Part shown: one piece after another, positions 601 to 54,129 of the stretch
How positions within the stretch are numbered: the stretch's first letter is position 1
Layout of the letters: every line of letters starts with the position of its first letter
DNA from: Glaucostegus cemiculus
Lineage: Eukaryota
NCBI GenBank assembly: GCA_976551045.1
Contig: CDPCPM010000114.1
Location: forward strand, 9,052,001-9,116,000
Direction of reading: 5' to 3'
Length of the DNA: 64,000 bases
Notes under the pieces: model-generated
Databases searched by the model: none
Seen by the model: only the letters and a program-made list of their open reading frames with translations
Told to the model about the DNA's origin: nothing
Made by a program: the position numbers and the translations under genes

Positions 601-1461
601 CCAGTATCTGACACTTTAATTAGCTTTCTCTGTCAGAAATAAAGGTGATGGAGACACTCAGAAGGTCTGGCCACATCTATGAAGAGTGAAACTGAGCTGA
701 TGCAACACCTGAAACATTAGAATTGGTGTTCTAACCTTGTGCCAGGTGAACAGGGCACAGGCTCAGCAGCAGATTTATCAGCCAGACGCTGGGAAATCTG
801 TGCAAGTTTGCACTTCCCCATGGGCTCCATGGTTCAGCATGGTAAATGGGCTGCTGTGAGGAAAGCTGTTGGTTTACACTCTTGCTGAAGCATGTATGAT
901 GGAAAATTCACTGTAAGTTAAACGAGACCAATTTAAGGCAACCCATAATTCCTCAGCAAGAGGGAAACTCAGCACTCAACCAAATTTTGAAGTGCAATCA
1001 AGTTTCAAATGCAGAGTAGGTTATTGAACATGGTTTTGAGAAAAATCTGTATTTCATGCTGAATATGTGGAAATTCAATATATTTCCGCCAACAACATCT
1101 GGATTCTACCTGAAACTGTGCTCTGTTACTTAATGAAATAGGCCTGTAATTGACTGATTTTTTTTTGTCATAATTTTTCTTTGCATGTGGCTAGTAACGG
1201 TGAGGCAACTTACTGTGTGCAGCTTTGATCAACATACAGTGTTGATGAGTTCAACTTTTCCTGCACTCGAGCCTCCAGTAAACTGACTTGCTACTTGGCA
1301 TAAAATGAACCTGTGCTTTGAACCCATTGATGCTCCTGTAGAAATCCTTGATCACATCTGCAAATTGCATAAGTTGCTTATCTAGACATGGATGTGAAGG
1401 ATTCCCACTAAATACATTGTTCCATTTTATTTTTAATCCTTTGAGCCTACCAAACAAAGAG

Positions 1462-1592
1462 CTGTAGATACTGGAAATCTAAAATACAGACAGAAAATAC
1501 TAGAAATGCTCGACAGGTCAGGCTGCATCTGTAGGAAGGGAAACAGCTAACATTTCAAGTCAAAGACCCTTCATCAGACCTGAAATGTCAGC
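1462..1592 (-). mobile_element. Penelope-derived terminal-repeat copy with decayed hammerhead motif
   Basis: Matches the family at 19.3/20.3/31.5/43.3/63.8 kb; minus strand reads CTGATGAAGGGTCTTTGACTTGAAATG. Confidence 0.65.
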
Positions 1593-2505
1593 AACTGTGA
1601 TTGGTTAACTTGCATTTTAACCATTATAAAAGACTACATATACAGTCTGATGTAGGTTTTCAGTATCTTGCCAGAATATGTCTTTGGATGCAGTATTCTT
1701 TTGGTGTTGGCACTTTGTTGACCTCGATTAACCAGTCAGCACATGTATAAGTGTTCATATTGATAAACTCATCATTAATTTTCCCCTCAATTTATAAATC
1801 CCTGCATTTTCATATTGCTGACATTGTTCTGGCTTGGAGTTCTGGGTCAAGCCTTGCTCAGTGAGGATCTGTGTCCTTGCCTTTTACACACAAAACATTT
1901 CGCTGCTTTAACCAGGCATCCCACTGACAGGTGGTCTCCATCACATTTGCAGCTGCTTTTTCCCACCAGCCTTGCCCTTCCAGCCAAGTTCACTGACACG
2001 ATTCAGCATTAATATCAGAACTTTTGGCTTAGTTGCTCCCATTTGCCCCACAGCAGCATTAGCACTGAGATTCTTTAGCATCATTGGAAGTCATTTCCAT
2101 GATTTTACATATATTCCTCAAATGTTTAATCCTTTGCATTTAATAATTTAGATTGAACTAGCCCTGTCAACCTGCACACAAAGATGTCTCAAAGTACTCA
2201 GTTTAGGAAGGTTCTTTAACACAACTGGATAATGATTAATCACCTTAATGACCTTTGGTTTCTGGTCCTGAATTTGAAAAGTGGATGATTTCTGTTTGGA
2301 GATGAAAGTGATTCTGCAATTATTCTAGTAACTCATCAAATAAAACATTGGTTTTCCCTCTTGGATGGTGAAGTATGTACCTGAGCCTCAGTCTGTGTTC
2401 GTTTCTTTTGTTCGATTTTTTTGTATGAGCAGAAGGCAACAGCAGCAGCCAGATTAGTGACACCTTGAATGGCTCGATTGTGCAGCAAGAACATTTGAAG
2501 TGTAG

Positions 2506-3225
2506 TCAAGTCAAAGTCGAGTTTGCTGTCAGATGTACAAGTACATGAATGCACAAGTGCAATGAAAAACTTAGTTGCAGGCACATAAAATCCAATGCAC
2601 AGCACTCACAAGAAAGACATATATTAACAAAAATTATATAAAATTGTACAAGAAACAACACAATTAGAACAAGCAAAAGGAAACAAGGTCCATTGTCGTG
2701 CAAAGTGGTCATAGTATTACTATACTGAGGTGGTGATGAGGAATCACTACTATATTCAAATTCAGTATGCATCGGAGCGAAATAGCGTACTTCACAGATC
2801 AAGATGCTCGTCACATTAAAAAAAAAGCAATGAGAGACACAAAGACAGAAAGACATTAACAACATTGGAACCACAAAATTAAATAGTGACTCGAATAAAC
2901 AATCTTAAAGTGAGCGTACTGAGGCAGCAGACAATGGACATTTAAAGTGCTGGTGAATTTCTGTACACCTAGCATCCTTTGGTGTTGGCAGGAGGGATGG
3001 AGGGATGAGGGAGTTCATGGTTCTGATAGCTTGTGGGAAGAAGCTATTGCACAGTCTGGTAGTCCTTGCCTGGATGCACTGTTAGGGTTGTGCAGGTTGG
3101 TTTAAGAACCAAATGGTTGAAGAGAAGTAGCTGTTCTTGAACCTGGTGGTGTGGGACTTCACACTCCTGTAGCTCTTGCCCGATGGTAGCTGCAAGAGGG
3201 TGGCATGGCCCAGATGGTATGATGG
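2506..3225 (-). mobile_element. Rex1/Babar-like LINE 3' end, split by a nested insertion
   Basis: 2506-2735 and 3080-3225 are collinear with the copy at 48955-49300 (GTCAAAGTC..TGTCAGATG..CAAGTACATG; TTAGGGTTGTG..GAAGTAGCTGTTCTTGAA); minus ORF reads LPSGKSYRSVKSHTTRFKNSYFSSTI. Confidence 0.75.
2750..3078 (-). mobile_element. Older copy of the Rex1 family seen at 26.9 kb and 61.2 kb, nested
   Basis: CATTTAAAGTGCTGGTGAATTTCTGTACACCTAGCATC nearly identical to 27137-27172. Confidence 0.75.
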
Positions 3226-3239
3226 CAAGCAATAGAGAT

Positions 3240-3410
3240 AGGGGCTCAGTAGCCAGGGGCATTGATAGGTTTTTGTGGCCATGAGTGAGATTCCAGGATG
3301 GTGGGTTGCCTTCTGGTGCTGGGATCAAGGATGTCTCTGAGCAGGCACAGGACATTCTGAAAGAGGAGAGTGAGCCACCAGATGTTGTGGTCCACATTGA
3401 TATTAATGAT
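3240..3410 (+). mobile_element. CR1 LINE ORF1 (SGNH esterase) fragment
   Basis: Translates GAGIKDVSEQAQDILKEESEPPDVVVHIDIND, like the CR1 ORF1 PGA..KDV / VVVHIGTND blocks. Confidence 0.75.
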
Positions 3411-3489
3411 GCATTGTGGAAAGCCAATGGTAAGAGGGAAGCATTCAGTAAATGGCAGGATCCCAAGGAGCATTTGCCATTTACTGAAT

Positions 3490-3749
3490 ACAAAGGGATC
3501 TTGGGCTACAAGTATATAGCTCTCTGAAAGTGGGAACACAAGTGGATAGGAGAGCAAAGAAGGCATGCAGTCTGCAATATGCTTGTTTTCATCGTTCGGT
3601 GCATTGAGTATAAAAATTGGCAAGTCATTTTGGCTGTATAAAACTTTGGTTTGGCCACATTTGGAGTAATGTGTACAGTTCTTGGCTCCACACTGTGGGA
3701 AGGATATGGGAGCTTTGGAGAAGGTGCAAAACAGGTTCATCAGGATGTT
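3490..3749 (+). mobile_element. CR1 LINE ORF2 3' fragment
   Basis: Encodes LYKTLVWPHLE*CVQF..PH..KDMGALEKVQNRFIRML, the CR1 post-RT motif. Confidence 0.85.
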
Positions 3750-5159
3750 AAGCCACACACAGAACACTGGAGGAACCATCAGGACAGGCAGCACCTGTGG
3801 AGGAAATCTTCTTGAATGTATCTCTTTGTAAAGCAAATCTAAATTACTTTAATGATAATGAAGGCTAGGTTTTCTTCCCACAACTAATATTTTTAAAACC
3901 TTTGGATGGTTTAAATTTCTGTTCTGGAGATTGAAATCATTTTCATTTATTTGATTATTTTTATGCATTCCTGATGTATGGATATTTGGACTTGGATTAC
4001 CAGTTTATGTGTGACGTAGAGCATAATCCTTATTATTCATCATGCTCAAAGATTAACTTGTCAGCAACTTCAATGTCATAGAATTCACTGAATCCTCATG
4101 GAATTTGACCTCAGAATACATAATCGATTTTCTTAATCTTTCCTTTAAATCAGTATACAGCTCTCAGAGCACGTTTTTTTTTCCAGTTGGTCAGGAATGT
4201 TGAAAATTGAATAAACACTGGGCATGGAGATGTTTAAAATTGTTTTATTTCTTGTTACAGTGCCAATGCTTGCTATATTTTCCACCAGTTCATTAAAATG
4301 TGCAATTGGGTGTGTTATTTATTCTACCATAAAAGTTTATTTGTTAATTGAAGAGCTTTATCTTTACTTTTCTGCTTTTTCAACATTGCTTACAGTTTTT
4401 TTCCTTCATGAGCAAATTCACACATCTGTAATTAAAATGTTACATCTTTATGTCTTTGGGAAGGTTTTAACTGGTGAAAGGGAAGATAATTGTGACAGCT
4501 GAGTTATCAGGCAGAATAATTTGCAACAGTAATAAAAGACTTTTTGACTTGTAGCTTACGTGAAAATCTAGCAATCGAGATGGCAATAGCAGCTAAGCTT
4601 GAATTTGGTTATCTATGAACATTGCAACTTTGAAATCAATTCAGCTTATTAATTCAAGAGGTTTTGAATAACTATTTGAACATATAACTGTTAATCATTT
4701 CATGTATAACATAAGAGTAGACATAATGGTCTCATGACCACATATAATGGGAATCAGTGTTTACTATTGATATTAAATTTTTTCACTGATGCGCTTTCTC
4801 TTCTTTTAATCAAATGTCATTACATCTTTCAAACCCTAAATCATAACTCACATGAACAAAATTATAGTTTCTTTGGTTATCATGAACTACAAATTCATCT
4901 GCACAATGCCCAAAAGATCAGCATGGGGCAGATGTAAATCTCTTTCAAGCAGTGTTAATCAATTTTATGCATTTCTGAATGAGTTATCATCAGCCATTCA
5001 TGTTGTATGTACATGTTGGTGCAAGAATTCTGTGTATCCCAGTGTGGTTTTTTCGCATTTAACTGGCCCAGTGACACGATCAATTCATTCCTGGCGTGAT
5101 TTTCACCCGCATTGGAACAAATCATGATTGGTGCTCCTTACTCATAGGAAAATGAGCTT

Positions 5160-6178
5160 CTTTCTTTTTCAATCTTTTTATTAGTTACAAATCAATACAG
5201 ATTAATATATAGCATCAATGTTTGCATGTGGAGATCAGGATAACAATCATAGCATTGGTAATCATAAGAAACAATGAAGTATAATATATATTAAAAAAAT
5301 AGATCCAACAGTCTCTTGGTTAATGAAGATAGTATAAAAGATAAGAAGGAAAACAATTTATTATATAAATTGGAAAAAAAGAAAGAAAAAAAACCCAAAT
5401 CAATAAGAAACATTGTAACAATATAAACTGAACAGAAAATTTTGGGGAAAAAATGGGCTAAAATTTCTCAATAGAAACAGAGCAATATTATGTTGTCAGC
5501 TCCATTCCTCTAAATTGAAAAGTTATTGAAAGGGAATCTACATCATGTGAAAATATTGAATAAATGGACTCCAAATATCTTCAAATTTAAGCGAAGGATC
5601 AACAGTACCATGCCTAATTTTTTCCAAGTTTAAACATTATATAGTTTGAGAGAACCATTGAAAGATAGTAGGGGGTATTGGATCCTTCCATTTAAGCAGA
5701 ATGGTTTGCTTGGCCATTAATGTAACAAAGGCAATCATACGGTTAGCGGAAGCAGATAAATATCCTTGGTAATCCAAAAATTGCAGGAGTAGGATGGGGT
5801 TGTAAGTCAATCTTCAATACATTTGAAATAATATTAAAAATGTCTTTCCAATATCTTTCAAAAAAAGGACAGGACCAAAACATATGTGCCAAAGAGGCCA
5901 CATTCAATTTACATCTATCACATATAGGATTTATATGGTCATATAAATGAGCTAGCTTATCTTTGGACATATGGGTCCTGTGCACTACTTTAAACTGTAT
6001 CAATGAATGTCTGGCACACACTGAGAATGTATTAACTAAATGAAGAATGTTCTTCCAAGTCTCTGAAGGTATAGATATCTGGAGTTCACTTTCCCAATCA
6101 TTCTTAATTTTGTCCAATGACTCTGGACATATTTTCATGATTAAATCATAGATTATTGCTATCAAGCCCTTCTGATGG
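5160..6178 (-). mobile_element. 5'-truncated L1-clade LINE (ORF2 C-terminal zinc knuckle plus 3' UTR)
   Basis: ORF 5743..6279: WESELQISI..QFKVVHR..CDRCKLNVASLAHMFWSCP (CCHC); AATAAA and A-rich tail on the minus strand near 5160-5182. Confidence 0.9.
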
Positions 6179-9100
6179 AAATGAGCTTCTATGCTGAAGC
6201 TCAAACTGAATGTTACTTCAAGGGTCAGGTACATGTCTTCTGTAGCCAGACGCAGAAATCTCCACCAAACAAACCTCAAGACTTGTTCAAACTGGAATCC
6301 CAGTCACCAAGCCCTTATATAGTTTCTGCAGGTTCCTCCTCAGAATTAAGTGGCCTGAATTGCAGAAGGAAATTCTGCAGAAAGAAGTTATGTTGAATTT
6401 AAATGGATTTACCAAAGTTGGATGGAGACATCTGACAAAGGAGGTGAATTCATGGAAGAAAGCTGCAGTGTGACGTCTGTAAGGACATCTGTACCTTCCA
6501 TGAATGGCCGCACCTTATGAGTCCCTCATTACAACCTTATTCCTCTTGCAGGTGCAAATGCAAAGGTCACATTATGAAAAGTATGTTTGCCATTATGCCA
6601 ATAAGGCTCCTTCTTGATTTCTGCAACTGAGAAGTGAGTAGCAAAATGATATAGGTGGCAAATCTCAACAGAGACAGTTTGCAAGGGATCCAAGGGAAAT
6701 ATTTCCGAAAGTAACTGTAACCCTGGCTTTGACTTTGACAGCAGTGCAGTGTGTTCATTTGCTACTTTAGGTTTGTGCCGTGAAACCTGCAAATCCAGAA
6801 GTTGCTTTCTGTGAGACGCTGCTGCTCCACAGGATGCACTGCCGAAATCCTCGGAGATATAAATCTTTTTGATACAAGTTAATTTAAAAATTTCAGCTTT
6901 TTATGTGCTGTAATTGTTGACTTGAGATGTAACTGTGATTTTTATGGTGTACCGTATAATATTTACTGCTGAACACTGATCTTGCCTTGGAAACATAATT
7001 TGATGTGTGGGGTTTAATTCCCTGAGAATTACTTTAAAATTAAATGCATTTTAAGAAGTATATTTTTCTAAGATGTTTTTGATTTTCAACATCAATCTTA
7101 ATCTCATTGCATAGGTCAATGGTGTCATCAGTTTGAATGAAATTGCGACCAGGCAAAGCAAAATCCACATGAAAAGAATTCAGTAGAGCTCTGATAGCAG
7201 GGAAGGTTAGACACTTGAATGGTGACTGGACAATCCAAAGGGAAAAAATATCTGGCTCAATAGATCTCAGTGTAATTTTAGTGCAGCAGGGGCAAAATCA
7301 GAAAATTTACTTGGTACACTGCATAAAATTTATGCTGCAATTTATCAACCGAATTAGGAGATTGTCTTTCTAGTAGCGGAGTCCACAGGGATCTTATTTC
7401 CCAGTCACAAATAATAATCATTGTAACTACACAAAAGGGGTCCAGAGAGTAAGAAATTACATTGGCTTCTCAATTAGACATTTACAGTTTCAGCATCATC
7501 AGTCTTATTACCGAAACTCAGAACTTAAATCAGGGTAAAAGGGAAGGATCATGAAAACAGCAAAGTTGTTTCCATGAGCAGCCATGGGGAATATATAACA
7601 GCTATTAGTGGGCTCATAAGTCTGCAAATGTTTGCCATTTATTGTAAGGAGCTGAGTTGCCATAAGGTGGAATTGTACATGTTTCATTAGTAACAGTTTC
7701 AACATATTTCCACTCTTGGCTTTTGTAAAACTAATATAGAACAAATCAAATTAGGCAGTCTCTCCCTGTGCATTGGATTTGAGTATGGCTACAGGTAGTT
7801 GTTAACAGTTGATCATTAGTGGGCAGTCACCTTGGGATGAAAATTGATCAGCCTTTGTCAAATCAGGTTTGGGCTTGAGCAGTATTCCGGACTGACCAGT
7901 GGGAGTAGCTTTAAAAACATGGCATGATCTGAGAATTTCCAACCTCCAACAACCACTCACGGGTCAACCATAACAAGAGCTCAGGTGAACAGAAACAGCT
8001 GAGCTATCCCCAAAAGAGTGACAGGGCACTGAAATACTCCAAGTTACCAGTGATGTTGCACTGCATGTGGATAGAATGGAATTCTGCTCTTTTTAAAGGA
8101 AATCTTTACTTTTACCAAGAAAGTCATATCAAGAATCCGAGTCGAAATGATACAGTCAGCAATTGCTGATGATGTGAGTGAATGTTTCTTCTGTGTTCTG
8201 CAAAAGAAAACAGAAACCTGTTTCAAAAGATTTTTTCTCAAATGTGGGTGCACAGACTTCACAAAGAAAATGTTTGTGAATATATTGCTCAACCATGTAG
8301 TTATACAAGCTTGAAGAATTCATTGGTTGTTATGAGATTAAAGAGTTGAATGAACCAAAATAGTGATGACTTGAATTAATCAGCATCTTTAATGATATCA
8401 TCTATGTTGCAAATAGGTGTAACACTGGTTTTGTAATCCTTGACTATTTTAGATGAGTTGATGGCTCATGCCTCAGTATTTTACTAAGTTCAGCTTGTCA
8501 CTTCTGAGGTGCATCTCAGTTATACATTGAACCGATTCCTAACTGGAAGGCTGAACTTTCTCAAAGTTAAGTTCAGATCCAAAATGATGAGGTTCAACAC
8601 ACATGTGGGGCCTCAGCTTCATAACTACTGCAATTTGGGAATACCAAACCATCTTGCCAAAAAAACAATGAAGGAAGCCTTTGCCAACAGTGAAAAACAG
8701 ATTCTTCAATGCTCTTGAATGTCCCTGACTCCAAGACATTCAAGAACTACTAAAATGCAATTAGGCAAATAAATCCAAACTGATTTAAAACTTTATTTAA
8801 AATAAAATATTGGGACAGGTGGATCTGGAGCCATCCCACTGCATGAACTCACTGCTTGCATTAACCTGCTCTTATACAGAGGGCCAAATGAGCTGGCTCT
8901 CCGTACCTGAGAGAAAATATTTCAGCAGTGAAATCACTGTCACATGCCTTACTTTTGTCCTTCTTGCTGCATGGTGAATGCACTTGCAGATTCTGCTCCA
9001 GGTGCCAGAGCAGATTCCCAGTGTGAATATTGGGGAATGCCGGGAAGCTCTTGCTCCACAGTTGCACTCTGTGCAGTGTCGAGCGGTGGAGCAGATTGAC

Positions 9101-44030: not shown

Positions 44031-46599
44031 CATTATTATTCATTCCACTCTTTACTCAGAAAATGAGAACCCGCAAAATGTGAAGAAATAACTATTATTA
44101 TGTAGACTGAATTGGATTGTCACTGAAAATGGGTGTGAGGGTTGCTATGCAAGAATAAACTCTGCGAGTTCATCCAGATGCAGGCAGAATATTTAATGTG
44201 ATTATTAGATGCAAATCTTAAGTTATTGTAGCTTAATAAAACATTCTTTGAGCACGAGAAAAAAATGGTAAAGAACATGGAAGGTGCATTCATCTGTGGC
44301 TTGATGGAAAGGCATGAGATTTTTTTCAACAGTTAAGTTTCACTATTGGCAGAGAAAAGTAGCTATCCGCATCAAAAGTTGCTTGCTTATTAGTCTAATT
44401 TCAACTCACAGCCAGCACTTATCATGCTGATCATTGGCTTATTACCTCACCAGGGGACCAGATAATGAATGCTTGCATCAGTTTAAGCTTCTTAGATGGG
44501 AGGTGCTTTGTAGCTGCAGCAGGTGGTGGAAGCCATCAGGCTGGTATTTGTGGGGAAATACCAGCTGTTCCACGCTAAACTCTCAGCACTTCCACGTCCA
44601 CTCCTACAGATCACAAATGCAAGAAGGCTCCATCCCAGGAAACTGGAAGTGATGACAACTCCTCCTCCAGCAACATGTTCTACACTCCATACCCTCTATT
44701 CAATGTTCCATTAATGTTCCATTCCCAGGGGAAGGCCCACTGATACACTCATCTTTGGGAGCATCTTGTTATTGCAAGCCAACCTCCTCCAGCACCTGGT
44801 GCATCATCTCCTATAGACTTTGGCAATTTTAAAAAAGTTAAGAAATTCCAAACCATTATTCAATGAAGTGACAGACAGTAGAAATGGATCAGCAACCAAA
44901 CTGTAAGCAATTGATAATTCATGTTTATTGCACTGATGTTGGGTCATTGCTAAACACTGAATTCTTATGTAAAATTAACACGTGTCATTGGCTGAAGGGT
45001 TGAGCTCTCGTTCGACAGCATTGATGCCATGATCTGCACACTTCCACTGCACCTTAGTGTCACATGCACTAATGCCCACTAAACACAGCAGCTGGCAACA
45101 CTTGCACCATGACTGCCCTGGGTGTATTTGACCCCATATTGAAACCAATGCAACTTCAGTAGGAACCAAACTGCTGAATTTCAAGACCCTTTTTTTCCCT
45201 AATTTTAGGCTATCAATCTATCTGTAATCTGTGAATTTCGTGCTTGGTATTCCACCTCTGAAGTGCTTGACTGTTATTCGCTGAAGAGCTTTTTCTGAGG
45301 CAGAATGTCAATGGTTGTTTTGTTTCATGGAGACCTGCAGCCGTCTTGTGATAACAATTGCTGCAATCACCTTGTTTCAATCAATGGATGTTAGCTGGAG
45401 TCACTCATTTAGCAAACTGGGCCACTATGGTCCGACATTCATTCCTGTATATAAAGCTACCTTTTTCTGCACTGCTAAGCTAATCAGACTCTTAAGGTAT
45501 TAGGAAAAGATTAAGGCGGTATCGCCCTGTTGGCTAAACGTGTGGTTCTTGTCGGTTCCTTTATGAACAGCAGGATTGGCATGTAGGTGGGAAGTGTGGA
45601 GCAGAAATGATAAGAGCATTTATTGACTGAAGGAACAGCTTCGAGTGTGTGAGAAGACTGCGTCTGTTGAAAAAAACAGAACCATCTCTGTGTTCAGAGT
45701 TTCAATCTATGGAAACAGGGAAGGCAATGTACTAATCTGCAAACAGACTAAATAATTCCTGCAAGAATATTTCTCATTATAAGTTCATACAGCCCCAATA
45801 CAAAATCTAAACTTTTCTATGTTGTGCAGTAAAGAAAGCTTTTATAAAGCAGTAGGCTACCAAGTTTTAGTGAGGCAAGTACAATATTTTCCACTTGTTT
45901 AGTAAAAGGTGAAGAATTCAAGCCAAACTTCTTTCAAGGGAGTGCCCTCTAATACTACTGTTCCTTGCTCCAAGTATGAAATCAGCTGTTCACATTAACA
46001 TTTCACTCCTTTAGTGTTTGTGGAGTACACGAATGAGATGAATTTTTAGCCAGCTATTGGAAAAATCAACCTCAGTTGCAATGAATAATCCACATAAACA
46101 TGATTTATTTTGTTGTTTGGTTTCTGATGGTTGGCTGATCCTTTTGACAACTTTAGAACAGAGAACTGGTTGTGCATTCCATGCTTAGGAAGTAGGATAT
46201 CAAGTGGCACACTTCTTCCTACCTGTTTACTTCATCTGCACAATGATTGAGAAGTAACTGAAAATGAATATTATTAGTTTGCTATTATTAAACTTAATTT
46301 ACCTTCACTTGCATACTCATCTGGAATTTAAAAAAAGACGAGGTTATTGCATGGATTCAGTCCATTTTCTTGCTGCTTTACATGTCTTTTCCCAAAAATT
46401 ATCACTCATAAAATTTGCATATCTATAAATTTATATATATAAGCCGTCTTTCACAGTATAATGTATAATTGCATTTGCTTACAAGAATTACATTTATCAC
46501 CTTTCTTTTACATACATCCCACGAGTGATAAGTGTGAGAGGTATTTACCTGGGTTCCAGATCCTCACTGTGCAATAGAGGGATCCCTTAAATTGAGTCC

Positions 46600-46797
46600 T
46601 TTCCCCATGGAGTCTTGTGGTTACAAGATTCAGTGTGTCCGTCAGCACAGTTCACACCTTGAAGGTGTCAGCCTCATTGCTAAGTGGGCAAGCAATGCTC
46701 ACAAGGGCATAATTCAAAACCTGAAGATTGTAGAGAGGTTTTGTCTGAGGACAGGACTACAAATTAATGTTAAAAAGACAGAAGGATTTTATATGAG
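46600..46797 (+). mobile_element. R2-like RT fragment
   Basis: SNAHKGIIQNLKIVERFCLRTGLQINVKKTEGFY; inverted homologue of 47595-47702. Confidence 0.7.
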
Positions 46798-47544
46798 TGT
46801 CTCAACCATCTTGAAGGCCCATGTAAGTGACCTTGAGGTTCCAACTACGCAAGAAGAATTCGACAAGGAAGTGATTCATCACCAGCTTAGCAAGGTGTTG
46901 GTGCTGCTTTGATGAAGCATTCTGTCAAATGATCTTAATAGTTTGCTTAGGGAACTATCTGACAGAATCCACCATCTTCTTTTCCTAGAGGGCCTTGAGA
47001 ACATTCCATGCAAACCATAACCTGATTAACTTGTGATCAAAGGTCTCCTTCTCCACCAACATTTCTATGTGGAACAGGGAGCATTGGGTGGCCCAGCTAA
47101 ATGGAATGTTCCATAGCCACATGGTCAGACTCATGCTTTCTAACAATGGGGCAGGTGGAACTTTCACATCGTAACACATGGTGTTTGTATACCGACTATC
47201 AAAGCACAATTTGATGCAGCTACAGACAAAAGTAGCAATTAAGCCGAGGGCCACTTCAGATAGGTTTTTCCCTCTCTCTCTATAGACGTACATCATGCCT
47301 CTGTGGAATGATCTGCTCAGCATTTCTTGATGAAATGAAATTCAGCTCGGTTGACTGTTGCAGTGCAAGAGCAGGCTTATGGGTCATACCTGTGCCATAT
47401 AGAGCAGCATCGAAAACGCAGTGCACTGGATCGCTAGATTATTTCCTGAGGTCATAATATTGAGCTGCTCCTACAATTTCAGTTTCTGCTCTGTTTTGGC
47501 TGCACATTCCCGCTGGTTCTTGGTGTATGGCATTCACCTCCAAT

Positions 47545-47915
47545 GATCCTCCATCAACCTAGATTATTAAAGATATAGGTCTCAGATTTGGAGGTCAGGT
47601 AAAGTCCTGCTGTCTTTCTGATATTAATTTGTAGCCCTGCAAATTAAGACAAAACCTCTCTACAATCTTCAGGTTTCGACTCATGTCCTTGTGAGAGTTG
47701 CTAATGACCGCAACCTTGTCAGCAAAGGTAAGGGCCAATCATGTGATATTAACATCCCTGAAGTGAAAGCCACAACCGTCCCTCTCTAGCAGTCACATTT
47801 AGAATGTCCGTGATGCAATTAAATGCAATTGAAGAGAGTGGGTCCCCTCGTTTGACACCCCCTCCCCTTAATAGGGATGGGAGTTGTCTTCCTGGAGCAG
47901 TCCCTATATTCCCGA
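47545..47915 (-). mobile_element. Internal R2-like RT fragment inserted in Tx1 ORF2
   Basis: GVKRGDPLSSIAFN..LERDGCGF..LTFADKVAVISNSHKDMSRNLKIVERFC..SETYIFNN (frameshifted); motifs of R2/restriction-like-endonuclease clade RTs. Confidence 0.75.
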
Positions 47916-48954
47916 CAGTCAGGTTAGTTGCCAAAGAGTATAAGCTCATTTTTGTTTCAATTTTCTGTCGCTGAGGCCAATTCAAAATGGTTGCAGGTGT
48001 CAATTAATCTCCGGAGCAGCAGTGTGTCTGAGCAGAGTATGACAACTTCACCATTTTGCCAGGAGGCTTTGATCTGAGCACTTGAGAGTGTTACCCCTCT
48101 TGTGCCCACATCCTCCCTGACAGATTCAGCAAAAGGCTCAGTACAGTATACACACAGGGCAGAGAGACAGTAGCCTTGTCTTTGGCCAGATTATTTTGGG
48201 AAAGTTTCTGTTTCCTCTCCGTTAATGTGAACTGTGCTTTTGATCTTTTGTTTGCGACAATTGAATACAATCATGAATTTTCTCCCCAAATCCTATTTTT
48301 GAGAGGGTGTCCGTCATGTACCTGTGTAACATTCTGCTGAAAACTTTCTCCTCCAAGCTGATGGATCAGGTGTTCACTTCCCTGTTCCCACATCAATGAT
48401 CGCATCCTTGAGTAACACAAGTGTGTCAAAGATCTTCCTGCTGAATACAGCACAGGTCTGTTCCAGGTAATTTACCAGCCCCACAGCAAACTGGACTCAG
48501 CTGGTGATAAGCCAGGGTAGAATATTGTACTCCACATTTTCAACTTTCTGATGTCTTCCCTCTCACCTTCTACTTGCAGATGAGAATGATGATATCCTTA
48601 CTCATCTGCAAGGTAGAAGCACACAATTGTACAATACCATTCTATCAGCTTTCTGCAAGTCCAGTGACGTAGAGAAAGATACAAGGCAGCCAGCAAGCCA
48701 TTGCTCCCTCCAGTTTTATCTGTCTCAAAGGAATGGATGGAATTTGTCATCTTGTCCAGATTTAATGGGTGGTCCAGACACTCTCAGTTGGTGCAATTTA
48801 GAACACCCCAGAGAGAGCACAGGAAATTCCAGGAGCCTGTGGCCTTCAAGTTGTACCGGCTGGCATAGAAGGATTTTAAGATCCTTAATATTTCTAGTTG
48901 TGAGGATGTTACTGAGTTATAACGGAGTTCTCTCTCTGAATCTTTTGGAAGAAA

Positions 48955-49612: not shown

Positions 49613-50151
49613 CAGCTCGCAAGAAGCACAAGCATGTTTTGTACTGCTCCATTGGATTGGAAGAAACTCTTGGAGGACTTCAGTACAAAGATCTAGGCTT
49701 ACTGGTTCTATACCTTTTGAATATCCTCCGCGATATCTGCCTTCCTTCACTTCACTGCAGCAGCAGCTACTGCATACTTCCCTGCATTTCTCTCAGACTC
49801 TCTCCCTCTCACTTCCTCAGCATGTTTGAGAATGAAGGGCCTCTTGTTGTTTGCTTGGATTGCTTTCCACCTGTGCATGGGAGACTGCACTGATCTGCCT
49901 GGCCTCAACCAGGTGTTTAGTGACAGTGCCGTACAGGGCCGCTGAAGGCATCTCACAGCTTGGCATCTTTTACCATTTCAATCAGAAGTTTAGAGGTGGA
50001 GTCCAGCTTGCTGTCAGCTCTGCTGAATCACAGAGCCTAATTGATGGTGTAGTTGATTCCACTGCCCCGAGCGACAGGCTGGGTCATCACCAGCTGCGGT
50101 GGGAGCTGATGGAGGATGGCCAGCTGTTCATTCTACAGAGCCTGATGATGA

Positions 50152-50572
50152 GGCATAGTGTCTTATGAGGATAGGTTGAGTGAGCTAGGGCTTTTCTCTT
50201 TGGAGAGAAGGAGGATGAGAGGTGACTTGATAGAGGTGTACGAGATGATAAGTGGACAGTCCGAGACTTTTCCCCAGGGTGACAATGGTTAACACAAGGG
50301 AACATAATTTTAAGGTTATTAGAGGAAGGTATAAGGGGATGTCAGGGGTAAGTTTTTTACACAGAGAATAGTGGATGCGTGGAACGCACTGCCTGCAGAG
50401 GTTGCGGGGACATAGATTAGGGACGTTTAAGACAATCTTAGATAGACACATGAATGATAGTAAAATAGGGGGCTATGTGGGAGGGAAGGGTTAGATAGAT
50501 CTTAGGGCAAGATAAAATGTCAGCACAACATTGTGGGCCAAAGGGCCTGTACTGTGCTATAGTGTTCTATGT
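50152..50572 (+). mobile_element. CR1 LINE 3' end nested in Tx1
   Basis: [41 protein letters not shown]; CR1 tail. Confidence 0.92.
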
Positions 50573-51609
50573 TTTTGTAAATCACATCACGTCCAAGGAG
50601 ATGATTGCCAACCAGCCCTTTCATTCCCACGAAGAGGAAGTTGCTCTTTCGGCAGCAGACCAATTTAGGTCAAGGAAGTGGCAGTCTTTGTCTCCTGAGC
50701 AAACCGATTGCTCGTGGACCACCATTGCCACCACTGTCAGTTGTTGTTGAAACACAGTTTTCCACGCTCTTGCAAAAGCAGGAGGCCAACCTTGACTTTG
50801 ACATGGAATCCCACACAGATTTGTGGATGTAATCTTTAAAGCCACAGTCATGTTAACACAAGGTCACATCACAGCAGTCATTTGCTTTGTCCCAGCCTGC
50901 CAAGCTGAGCAGCCTCAGGCTCTTTGTTTCCAGTGCAGGTTCTTGGTTGGGATGTCTTTCCTCACCTTACATGGTGCAGCACTGACTTCCCTGTGTCACT
51001 TTGCCATCAGATGGGGGGCAGTGGTGGCATCTGACTGGGACATTTGCTGCTTATTGCTAATTTGGCTTGAAGTTGTTGGCAGCATTTTAGCATTTCATAG
51101 TCATGTTTATCATTTTCTTTCTTTTCGCTGCCTGCCAGTCCCTTGCTTGTCACCTGCTACCTCCTCTTCTGTTGATGTTGAGGAAGAGACTGGGGTTTGA
51201 CAACTTCCCTCAACCGGATTCTCTTTCCTTTCGTTCCTGATGTTCCCAGCTGGAGCTTTGTTTGGAGGAGGGGAGCTCTTCTCCTTTGTGGAAGATTCTT
51301 TGCCAGCTTCTTCTCCAGTGTGCGTAGATGGAGGAGGGTTTGGGGCATGCTCAGTAGAGGTGCCTCCTCACTCAGGTTTTAACATGTGCTCCCCTTGCGG
51401 TGTCCGGTCTGGTGACCTTCTAGTTTCAATTTCGCCAGCTGAAGGGAGTGTGAGTGGGCGGCACCTGTCCAGATTTATCACTGGTGTGGCACATTCTGAA
51501 TTGTCCTGAGTAAACCATGTAACCGTGACTCCCACCATATGCCAATCTGGAGGATGGGTGTTATGGCTTCCTTTCTATCCACTTCAAGTTTCACCTTGTT
51601 CTATTGTTT

Positions 51610-51890: not shown

Positions 51891-54129
51891 ATACCTCGTC
51901 CAGATCCTGTTTTCCCCATCGGGAAATTCATTGTATCTTTCAACTAAAAAGCAGGTAAGAAGGTGATATGCATTAATTTCAATGCACTTTCCCGTTTCCT
52001 TAATATATCTAGCAAAGAAGATAAAAACATCCACAGCTGGAATGTGAGGGTGTGCGTCTGTTATGTCATAGTCCAGTCTAGTGAGAGCAGATTCTTGGTG
52101 TACCCTTCTGTCAGAAAGGTACACCAAGACTCTGCCTTCAGAGCTGACAGTGGCACTAAACTCCTCTTTTCTCTGAAGGTATGCAGAAACTTTGAGCCTC
52201 CAGCGATGCTTCTGAAGGTCATGTCAAAATCACCATGACCTGGGAAATGCTGCAGCCAGATGATATCCATGGCCTTGAGTCCACAACACTCAAACAACAC
52301 ATTTTCACTGTTCTGACTCCACCCACATTCCTCACTGTCACCTTCACAGTGTTGCAAACACCCTGGCCATCTGCTTGATTAGCTGCTATGGCTGATTCAA
52401 GAAGCAAGCTGCCGTTGCCAGAGTCTGTTCTTCTTACATGTAATATGTCACTCTGAGTTAGTTTTAGCTTTGAAGCAGAAATAAACTCACTAGTAACTTG
52501 CTCACACTTTACAATCAGGCTGCTCTGTCATGTGTGATCCATGCTGAACTGAATCCTGTGTAATCGGGTTTGTGCCTTTTCCCTAACAAATGGTCATATA
52601 AGTATGTTGTTACATCAGAATAGAAGGTGAAAGTACTGCTGTGTATTACATAGAACTGATTTGATTTCTGTGATCATTTATTTTCAGATCCTCCCCAGTT
52701 GGCAATGCCTGATGTGTGTACAGCCTGTACATACAAACAAGCGTGTGGGAGACTGGTGGGATGGATTTGCCAGCTGCTGCAAGCATCTTCTGCCATGTGG
52801 GAACTCAGCCTGTGGCCGTATTTCCAACTTGCGAACTGTTCAGGTTACGAACAGTTCACAGGAATGGAACCCTTCTGTAACCTGGGGAGGACCTATGTTA
52901 CTTCGAATGCCAAAAGTCCAACTAATTTTGTCTTCATCCCTAAACTGTATATCCTGTTTGGTGTCACTAGCAAGATTATCTAATGTTTTAATTTACTGAC
53001 TTCAGTTATGTCTGTGAACCTAAACTAATCTGAACAATGTAAATGTACCCAAACTTGACCAACCTAGTTTGGCCTCTTGGCTTTGAGAATACATATGGTT
53101 TCCACCATCTGTGACATCCGAGTAAGATCCATTAATCCTGTCACTTTTAATGACATTTGTATAATTATTTTGCTCAATTATTATTTTACTTCTTATTTTT
53201 CCCTGCTTCAATCCCTCCATGATTGCTTGCTTTGACAAAACTCACTTATTCAGTGCATCCAGTAAATTTGTCTCAGTATCAGACTTGGCTAGAGTTATGG
53301 AAATGTATTTTCAGTCATTTGTAAACATAGAATTAAATCAATAATGTACCACTGCAAAAAAGATCACATATAATTATTACTACCTGTGCACTGTATAAAA
53401 AGATCAACAAAGTCATTTATGATGCATGTGAAAAACAAAATGACACGACAATACAATTCAGAAAAACAATCACTTTATAAACTGATTCATGCCATTTGTC
53501 AATAATGCAGCCAATGGCTGTGCATCACACTGATTTGTGCAATGACATAAATTAATAAAAATAAATATATTGGTATTTTCAGCTTAATGTGTTCCAAAGC
53601 TCAACATTTACAATTTACATTTGAAACATGAATTGTAAGTTTTTCTATCTGGTGTTCTCTGGCAATGTAAAGCTGCAGCAACCAGATACTTTACAAAATT
53701 GTACATAAAGTGCAAAGTAATTTGTAGGTCAAGCATGGATCTGATAAAGGAAGAGCAATAGGGTATAGCAAATTTGTTGTGGTGGATGAGGAAATACAAT
53801 TTTTAAGAGTTAATGACCAGTACAGGCTGATAACAGTTGAGGGGATCCATTAAATTGAATCATTCTCAGTAATTCCTCCAATCATATTTGGACTTTGGAG
53901 GTCACATCTGCCTCTGTCTGGCACCCATGACATCTGGAGTGATACACAACAATGCTTTGCACTCTTGTAGTGTGTGTTACTTAATGTATGTTGTGACAAT
54001 GGCTCTGGAGCTGTCATTAGGATATTGCAAAATTGGTTTGATCGTTATCACTTGGAATGAATCTGTTCTTTATTGAGCCTGGCAAATGACCCAAGCCCAA
54101 AAGGCTGTAGCCATTTGTAATTGAAACTG

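What the first reader, a model, noticed from the sequence alone, without database searches (positions are those of the whole stretch)
47545..47915. Internal R2-type RT fragment embedded in a Tx1 LINE at a near-equivalent position, outside rDNA
Seen: the Tx1 RT runs to FELAS..ILFGN (~47915). About 370 bp of a different RT follows in the same orientation (GVKRGDPLS, LTFADK, NLKIVERFC, TYIFNN), then Tx1 resumes at its KN.RE..KTEQKL block, apparently missing some 15-20 codons. Established: R2 elements normally target 28S rDNA, and TPRT copies keep their 3' end. This piece has no 3' end and no rDNA flank. Inference: RT template switching between two LINE RNAs, capture during break repair, or a remnant of an undescribed non-site-specific R2 relative or Tx1/R2 chimeric family.
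Basis: partly seen in the sequence, partly recalled or inferred. Interest (0 to 1): 0.7.

Follow-up and report, generated by a model that had tools for sequence, protein, structure and literature searches.

The report
Extinct R2 scraps patched into LINE
Two short scraps of an extinct ribosomal-DNA jumping gene (R2) sit inside one dead copy of an unrelated jumping gene (Tx1), where they likely filled DNA breaks once, long ago; the structure is real and shared with related species, but it looks like a one-off accident and not a new mobile family.

Summary
A ~385-bp internal R2 RT piece (47915-47532, minus strand) interrupts a dead Tx1 LINE and replaces ~70 bp of it. It has no 3' end and no rDNA flank. 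The position is not equivalent: RT motifs are duplicated, not swapped. No second copy of either junction of the long piece was found. Contigs of another organism bridge all four junctions, so the structure is old and no assembly error. The piece belongs to an extinct chondrichthyan R2 lineage with 17 other dispersed relics in my tree; 2 of its 4 relics with a readable 3' end keep 28S sequence at the exact junction. Intact 28S-inserted R2s of three other lineages exist in this genome. Best reading: one-off break-repair capture (0.45). Rivals: off-target insertion then deletion (0.25), Tx1 template switch (0.22). A chimeric family is unlikely. The scan earlier noted another R2 fossil in this genome (e1-9594502).

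The parts
47532..47915 (-). R2 piece 1: internal RT fragment (about aa 705-837 of the intact R2a ORF), frameshifted, with stops; no 3' UTR, no 28S
   Evidence: ends read by eye from alignments, +/- about 10 bp
46691..46797 (+). R2 piece 2: inverted ~105-bp fragment (R2a aa 782-816), overlapping piece 1 in R2 coordinates; replaces ~190 bp of Tx1; 4-nt overlaps with Tx1 at both ends (by eye)
47916..48950 (-). Tx1 ORF2, RT core up to aa 405 of the young relative P0004; degraded, ~65% DNA identity to younger copies
46798..47531 (-). Tx1 ORF2 after the RT core (aa 14-240 of P0005), between the two R2 pieces
46387..46690 (-). Tx1 3' end (end of ORF2 and 3' UTR)
   Evidence: DNA matches to L006, L008, L014, L021
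48950..49620 (.). later nested high-copy repeat(s) inside the Tx1; not identified
   Evidence: (very high depth from 48928)
49653..50137 (-). Tx1 ORF2 upstream part (endonuclease/linker side), with a ~200-bp internal deletion near 49885
50158..50580 (+). nested CR1/L2-like LINE tail inside the Tx1
50570..50808 (-). furthest upstream Tx1 piece detected
   Evidence: 61% matches to L027, L040

Best explanation
This is a dead patchwork, found once, in which two overlapping scraps of an extinct 28S-type R2 retrotransposon replace short stretches of one Tx1 LINE copy, likely laid down as filler during one DNA break-repair event. Shown: both scraps are R2, both lack R2 ends, both sit where Tx1 sequence is missing (~70 and ~190 bp), they are in opposite orientations, and the junctions are shared with related organisms. 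Inferred: while this R2 lineage was active, its RNA or cDNA was captured at a break in the Tx1 copy (piece 1). A polymerase then switched template at 4-nt microhomologies and copied ~105 nt of the same R2 sequence backwards across a second break 735 bp away (piece 2). It encodes nothing and likely has no function.
For: Both-end truncation plus target deletion match endonuclease-independent L1 insertions, where 18 of 21 loci had target deletions (PMC1920257, passages). Piece 2 is antisense to the Tx1 RNA strand, so first-strand copying of R2 RNA cannot make it; it needs a DNA template (sequence logic). Pieces 1 and 2 are each other's best match, 81 of 98 sites. Short overlaps at both ends of piece 2 (GTCA, TTGC) are read by eye. 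Only the locus itself spans a junction. In the two runs laid at >=80% identity, the 4 and 5 contigs that map to piece 1 all belong to this locus. Relic L140 of the same subfamily is also a short internal fragment, with no Tx1 beside it.
Against: No pre-insertion allele was seen: organisms B and C both carry the pieces. Piece 1 is in sense orientation in a LINE that is rare here (Tx1 ORF hits in 0 of 20 arbitrarily placed 10-kb loci), and a second Tx1/R2/Tx1 sense sandwich exists (L092); both favour an RNA-level switch. Piece 1-piece 2 identity (81/98) is hardly above piece 2-L140 (78/98), so local copying is not proven. No microhomology could be fixed at the junctions of piece 1, and the 4-nt overlaps were not tested against chance.
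Confidence: 0.45

Rival explanations
1. An ordinary 5'-truncated R2 inserted off target into the Tx1 by its own target-primed reverse transcription; a later deletion removed the R2 3' half with some Tx1, and piece 2 arose in that repair.
For: Off-target, 3'-intact R2 copies occur in this genome: L090 sits in a CR1/L2-like LINE with its full 3' UTR joined to TAGAC; L129, L125, L141 and L092 end in non-28S DNA. The lost Tx1 stretch reads GAAGG-TG in relatives, loosely like the target core (recalled). Old relics often carry internal deletions.
Against: It needs a ~2-kb deletion ending within ~70 bp of the old junction, completed before organisms B and C split from this species. No trace of the R2 3' half was found in the window.
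Confidence: 0.25
2. During Tx1 integration the Tx1 reverse transcriptase jumped from Tx1 RNA to an internal point of an R2 RNA and back (double template switch); piece 2 is a fold-back made in second-strand synthesis.
For: Sense orientation of piece 1. Tx1 copy and R2 piece are similarly far from their nearest relatives (65-70% and 66-71%), so both RNAs may have coexisted. A second sense sandwich, L092. Tripartite LINE chimeras exist (PMC2104539, abstract); R2/R1 hybrids exist (PMC3414825, passages).
Against: Tx1 near R2 relics is not significantly enriched: 4 of 28 relic loci against 0 of 20 control loci, Fisher p=0.105. The junctions are not at homologous RT positions. Piece 2 still needs a DNA-level step.
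Confidence: 0.22
3. The piece is a remnant of a non-site-specific R2 family, or of a replicating Tx1/R2 chimeric family.
For: 17 dispersed relics of this lineage lie outside rDNA, and its member closest to the piece with a 3' end (L129) ends in non-28S DNA. Non-specific R2 families are known in flatworms (PMC5035012, passages) and cockroach (PMC7650587, abstract). The DNA search misses relatives near 69% identity (L129 was absent).
Against: L131 keeps 234 bp of 28S from the first base of the target, and L130 keeps an 11-of-12 match in the same register (0 such 12-mers in 395,600 control positions). Copy number is low (3 matches to the L129 3' end). No second copy spans a junction. Of 28 relic loci read, only L092 has Tx1 on both sides, with another R2 lineage and other junctions.
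Confidence: 0.08

Closest known systems
Non-classical (endonuclease-independent) L1 insertions, Sen et al. 2007, PMC1920257 (passages read)
   Same: Internal LINE fragment without 3' end, with target-site deletion; proposed capture at double-strand breaks with microhomology.
   Different: Donor is an rDNA-specific R2, host is another LINE, there are two fillers in opposite orientation, and no pre-insertion allele could be shown.
Chondrichthyan lineage-A R2 elements, PMC13188248 (passages read); R2Sqj in PMC5035012
   Same: The piece groups inside shark and ray R2 RTs; intact relatives in this genome have three N-terminal zinc-finger-like motifs (read by eye) and sit at the 28S site.
   Different: The piece belongs to a separate, extinct sub-lineage (AU test rejects grouping with the living R2a/R2b clade, p=0.0001), seen only as dispersed relics.
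R2 and R1 copies outside rDNA in Drosophila, PMC2718515 (passages read)
   Same: Incomplete non-rDNA R2 copies; off-target R1 sites with short target likeness or up to 14 nt of downstream 28S, as with L130 here.
   Different: Those R2 copies are 1-2% diverged; these are ~30% diverged and record lineages that no longer live in the rDNA.
Tripartite LINE chimeras (PMC2104539, abstract) and R2/R1 hybrid SIDEs (PMC3414825, passages)
   Same: Fusion of sequences from different retroelements in one orientation.
   Different: Those join element ends and some replicate; this is an internal piece, found once, with an extra inverted piece.

Membership tests
R2 clade (source of the pieces) | RT groups with R2 and not with Tx1/L1 or CR1 | tested here: met
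   Tree: starred clade with relics L129 and L140 (96/90) inside R2; scores 162-198 vs 52; PDB hits only R2. The AU test of forcing it with Tx1 did not reject (p=0.09, 146 columns). No NeSL, HERO or R4 rows were knowingly included.
R2 clade (source of the pieces) | Insertion at the 28S site | tested here: not met
   No 28S in the window. For the lineage, 2 of 4 relics with readable 3' ends keep 28S at the junction.
R2 clade (source of the pieces) | Full element: zinc fingers, Myb, RT, RLE endonuclease, 3' UTR | tested here: not met
   Only part of the RT is present. Longer relics of the lineage match from the zinc-finger region to near the C terminus (L129 aa 201-1244, L130 aa 208-1215).
Tx1 clade (host copy) | L1-group ORF2 with APE endonuclease, RT and zf-RVT, closest to Tx1 proteins | tested here: met
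   Tested on young relatives: RVT_1 and a sub-threshold zf-RVT hit; L1 ORF2p best in PDB; homologs carry PF03372+PF00078+PF13966 and 1 of 120 listed is named TX1. No tree against L1 proper was built.
Non-classical (endonuclease-independent) insertion | 3' truncation, no tail, no TSD, target deletion | tested here: met
   Both pieces lack the R2 3' end and replace ~70 and ~190 bp of Tx1.
Non-classical (endonuclease-independent) insertion | Pre-insertion allele shows that the 3' end was never there | tested here: inconclusive
   Organisms B and C both carry the same structure; no deeper outgroup was reachable.
Chimeric Tx1/R2 family | Several copies with the same junctions | tested here: not met
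   1 of 5 matches spans a junction, the locus itself; the search loses relatives near 69% identity.
Non-site-specific R2 (R2NS) | 3'-intact copies consistently lack 28S flanks | tested here: inconclusive
   2 of 4 in this lineage lack 28S and 2 keep it; rDNA turnover would leave only off-target copies in either case (inference).

The most novel reading that the evidence does not exclude
An extinct chondrichthyan R2 lineage had partly lost 28S specificity, and its RNA was repeatedly taken up by Tx1 integration complexes, so Tx1/R2/Tx1 sandwiches (this locus, L092) are a recurrent cross-clade template-switch product. The dispersed relics would then give a germline record of vertebrate R2 off-target sites.
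Probability: 0.12. Interest if true: 0.6.

Novelty: new member of a known kind. Interest (0 to 1): 0.27.

Why it matters
The locus itself is a dead accident. Its use is as a pointer: this genome keeps dozens of R2 relics outside rDNA, from lineages that rDNA turnover has erased. Their 3' junctions (28S tails of 12-604 bp, TAG-core sites, unrelated sites) could give a natural off-target spectrum of vertebrate lineage-A R2, the group used for RNA-mediated transgene insertion (PMC11371274, passages). My searches listed no paper on dispersed R2 relics in sharks or rays or on Tx1/R2 chimeras. The library lacks most subscription papers, and I read no supplements; those of PMC13188248 and PMC5035012 may list such sequences.

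Tried and rejected
Assembly artefact: rejected; contigs of organism B bridge all four junctions and of organism C three. Homologous swap of RT regions: rejected; the Tx1 keeps its own RT core. Derivation from a living R2 of this genome: rejected (no DNA match of the window's lineage to R2a/b/c beyond 43 bp in L004; AU p=0.0001). An 11-nt match of 46814-46824 to relic L129 suggested a longer piece 2; the orthologs differ at three of those sites, so I treat it as chance. Tx1 enrichment near R2 relics: not significant (p=0.105). Pfam was uninformative for the piece (RVT_1 E=0.14). Rfam scans of the intact-R2 loci gave no answer, so their flanks are called 28S from the target motif (TAGCCAA is quoted in PMC11371274; the longer motif is recalled). 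The 54-row careful tree did not finish; one search is the quick tree, and a finished 26-row tree without the mixture model. Piece 2 and L138 were left out of the trees as too short. No RNA holder listed. Organism A contigs did not cover the pieces. L168 and L169 gave no readable 3' junction. I did not look for a TSD around the Tx1 copy.

Full report
Observation. The window is G000:C114:9052001-9116000 of a 2.85-Gb genome. The quoted motifs lie on the minus strand in three frames. The middle frame hits only R2 proteins in the PDB, 3 hits at E 0.001-0.007. A frameshift-aware alignment scores the piece 162-198 against R2 RTs and 52 against a Tx1 RT. Neither Rfam nor blastn with this genome's own R2 flanks finds 28S in the window.

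Anatomy. The host is a degraded Tx1-type LINE on the minus strand, from at least 50808 to ~46387, with later nested repeats. Its young relatives are L1-group ORF2s whose homologs carry APE, RT and zf-RVT domains; 1 of 120 listed homologs is named TX1. Tx1 runs to 47916 (aa 405 of P0004). R2 homology runs from 47915 to ~47532, as fixed by relic L129 and by orthologs, which hold 21 bp missing here and lack a 2-bp insertion. Tx1 resumes at ~47531, about 70 bp or 23-24 codons on. The Tx1 keeps its own RT core, so the piece duplicates ~110 codons and does not replace the equivalent region. A second R2 piece lies at 46691-46797 on the plus strand. Tx1 continues on both sides of it, and ~190 bp of Tx1 is missing there by comparison with L008 (by eye). 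It overlaps piece 1 in R2 coordinates. The two match at 81 of 98 sites; piece 2 matches L140 at 78 of 98 and L139 at 70 of 88. Both ends of piece 2 show 4-nt overlaps between Tx1 relatives and antisense piece 1, read by eye and not tested against chance.

Copy number and age. A DNA search with piece 1 gave 4 matches of 4 candidates: itself, piece 2, and two relics at 70-71%. A query spanning both junctions of piece 1 gave 5 of 5, and only the locus itself spans a junction. The search is not exhaustive: L129, at 69%, was found only by protein. Eleven public runs hold part of the stretch; I laid 4 of them. Contigs of organism B bridge all four junctions and those of organism C three, at roughly 6-12% difference. 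At >=80% identity only 4 and 5 contigs map to piece 1 in the two runs laid, all from this locus. The structure is therefore older than the split of these organisms and is no assembly error.

Source lineage. A protein search gave 150 scored matches of 285 candidates, many with open frames of 300-1300 aa. I fetched 12 loci of these intact families. They fall in three lineages at 62-72% amino-acid identity; 10 of 12 end at the exact downstream target motif, L079 by alignment, and L081 has lost its 3' end. The piece is only ~40-45% identical to them. I read 28 ten-kb loci holding degraded R2 outside rDNA arrays, chosen. In the 54-row quick tree, piece 1 and 17 relics form one clade (SH-aLRT 94) inside chondrichthyan R2 (87). 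In the finished 26-row tree the piece joins L129 and L140 (96/90) within a starred group of six (97/94). The AU test rejects grouping with the living R2a/R2b clade (p=0.0001). It does not reject grouping with Tx1 (p=0.09; 146 columns, long branches), so the case against Tx1 rests on the free trees, the scores and 66-71% DNA identity to R2 relics.

Was that lineage site-specific? Nine of the 28 loci have a readable R2 3' end (L141 and L092 judged by eye). Three keep 166-604 bp of decayed 28S starting at or within a few bases of the target (L131, L142, L091). L130 keeps 11 of 12 nt in register, a match seen 0 times in 395,600 control positions. Five keep none: L090, L092, L125, L129, L141; L090 and L141 begin with TAG. 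Within the piece's own lineage the count is 2 of 4 (L131, L130 with; L125, L129 without). My inference: a 28S-type R2 whose rDNA copies were purged by turnover, leaving only strays. Partial loss of specificity is not excluded. An earlier, unchecked note on another R2 fossil in this genome reads the same way (e1-9594502); I did not see that locus.

Mechanism. Both pieces are truncated at both ends and sit in Tx1 deletions, the pattern of endonuclease-independent L1 insertions (PMC1920257, passages). Piece 2 is antisense to the Tx1 RNA, so it needs a DNA template; insertions templated from nearby DNA are reported at L1 integration sites (PMC11702581, passages), and R2 cDNA snap-back is reported (PMC11371274, passages). 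One repair event that used one R2 molecule twice is the simplest single account (0.45). Off-target insertion with later deletion is a real rival (0.25), because 3'-intact strays exist here, one inside a CR1/L2-like LINE (L090). A Tx1 template switch (0.22) is favoured by the sense orientation and by L092, a second Tx1/R2/Tx1 sandwich with another R2 lineage, but Tx1 is not significantly enriched near relics (4 of 28 against 0 of 20, p=0.105). A replicating chimera or a non-specific family is least likely (0.08). None of these steps is shown; an outgroup allele would decide.

Comparison and verdict. It works like a non-classical insertion; strict membership is open because no empty allele was seen. 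R2 in sharks and rays (PMC13188248, PMC5035012, passages), non-rDNA R2 copies (PMC2718515, passages), non-specific R2 families (PMC5035012; PMC7650587, abstract) and LINE chimeras (PMC3414825, passages; PMC2104539, abstract) are all in print. Searches listed nothing on Tx1/R2 chimeras or dispersed chondrichthyan R2 relics; supplements were not read. Real, old, found once, dead: interest 0.27. The relic population is the part worth following.

Noticed in passing
L092 (G000:C55:4987500-4997400), 2320-6978: Second Tx1/R2/Tx1 sandwich, all on one strand: Tx1 RT stops, R2 aa 358-1253 with an apparent 3' terminus follows, Tx1 resumes with ~1.2 kb lost. The R2 is sister to the living R2b.
   Followed up: partly
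L090 (G000:C398:75500-85400), 4131-6285: 5'-truncated R2 with full 3' UTR inserted in a CR1/L2-like LINE; the host reads GATAAG before and TAGAC after it, like the 28S target core: a likely natural off-target insertion.
   Followed up: partly
L077 (G000:C148:9173500-9183400), 1237-7467: Two different R2 lineages in tandem at one 28S site: a full R2a followed directly by a 5'-truncated R2c.
   Followed up: no
many contigs, e.g. C1, C24, C88, C148, C170, C342, C528: Very many R2-inserted rDNA units with long open frames, spaced ~20-80 kb apart, from three coexisting lineages.
   Followed up: partly
L139 (G000:C132:1128500-1138400), 4523-6346: Relic of the piece's subfamily in rearranged order: aa 816-963, then back to ~aa 745-970, then 1089-1256.
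   Followed up: no
L131 6411-6640, L142 3125-3287, L091 3127-3697: Dispersed R2 relics with short 28S tails (234, 166, 604 bp at 88-91% identity) in non-rDNA context; moved rDNA fragments or read-through transcripts.
   Followed up: partly
G000:C37, 18.1-30.3 Mb: At least six old R2 relics on one contig, three within 80 kb at 24.84-24.92 Mb; perhaps a decayed former rDNA neighbourhood.
   Followed up: no
L079 9195-9899 and L158 1898-2458: Weak (21-25%) matches to R2 proteins, perhaps another restriction-like-endonuclease LINE clade.
   Followed up: no
window 52087-52135: 49-bp imperfect palindrome in the self-comparison.
   Followed up: no
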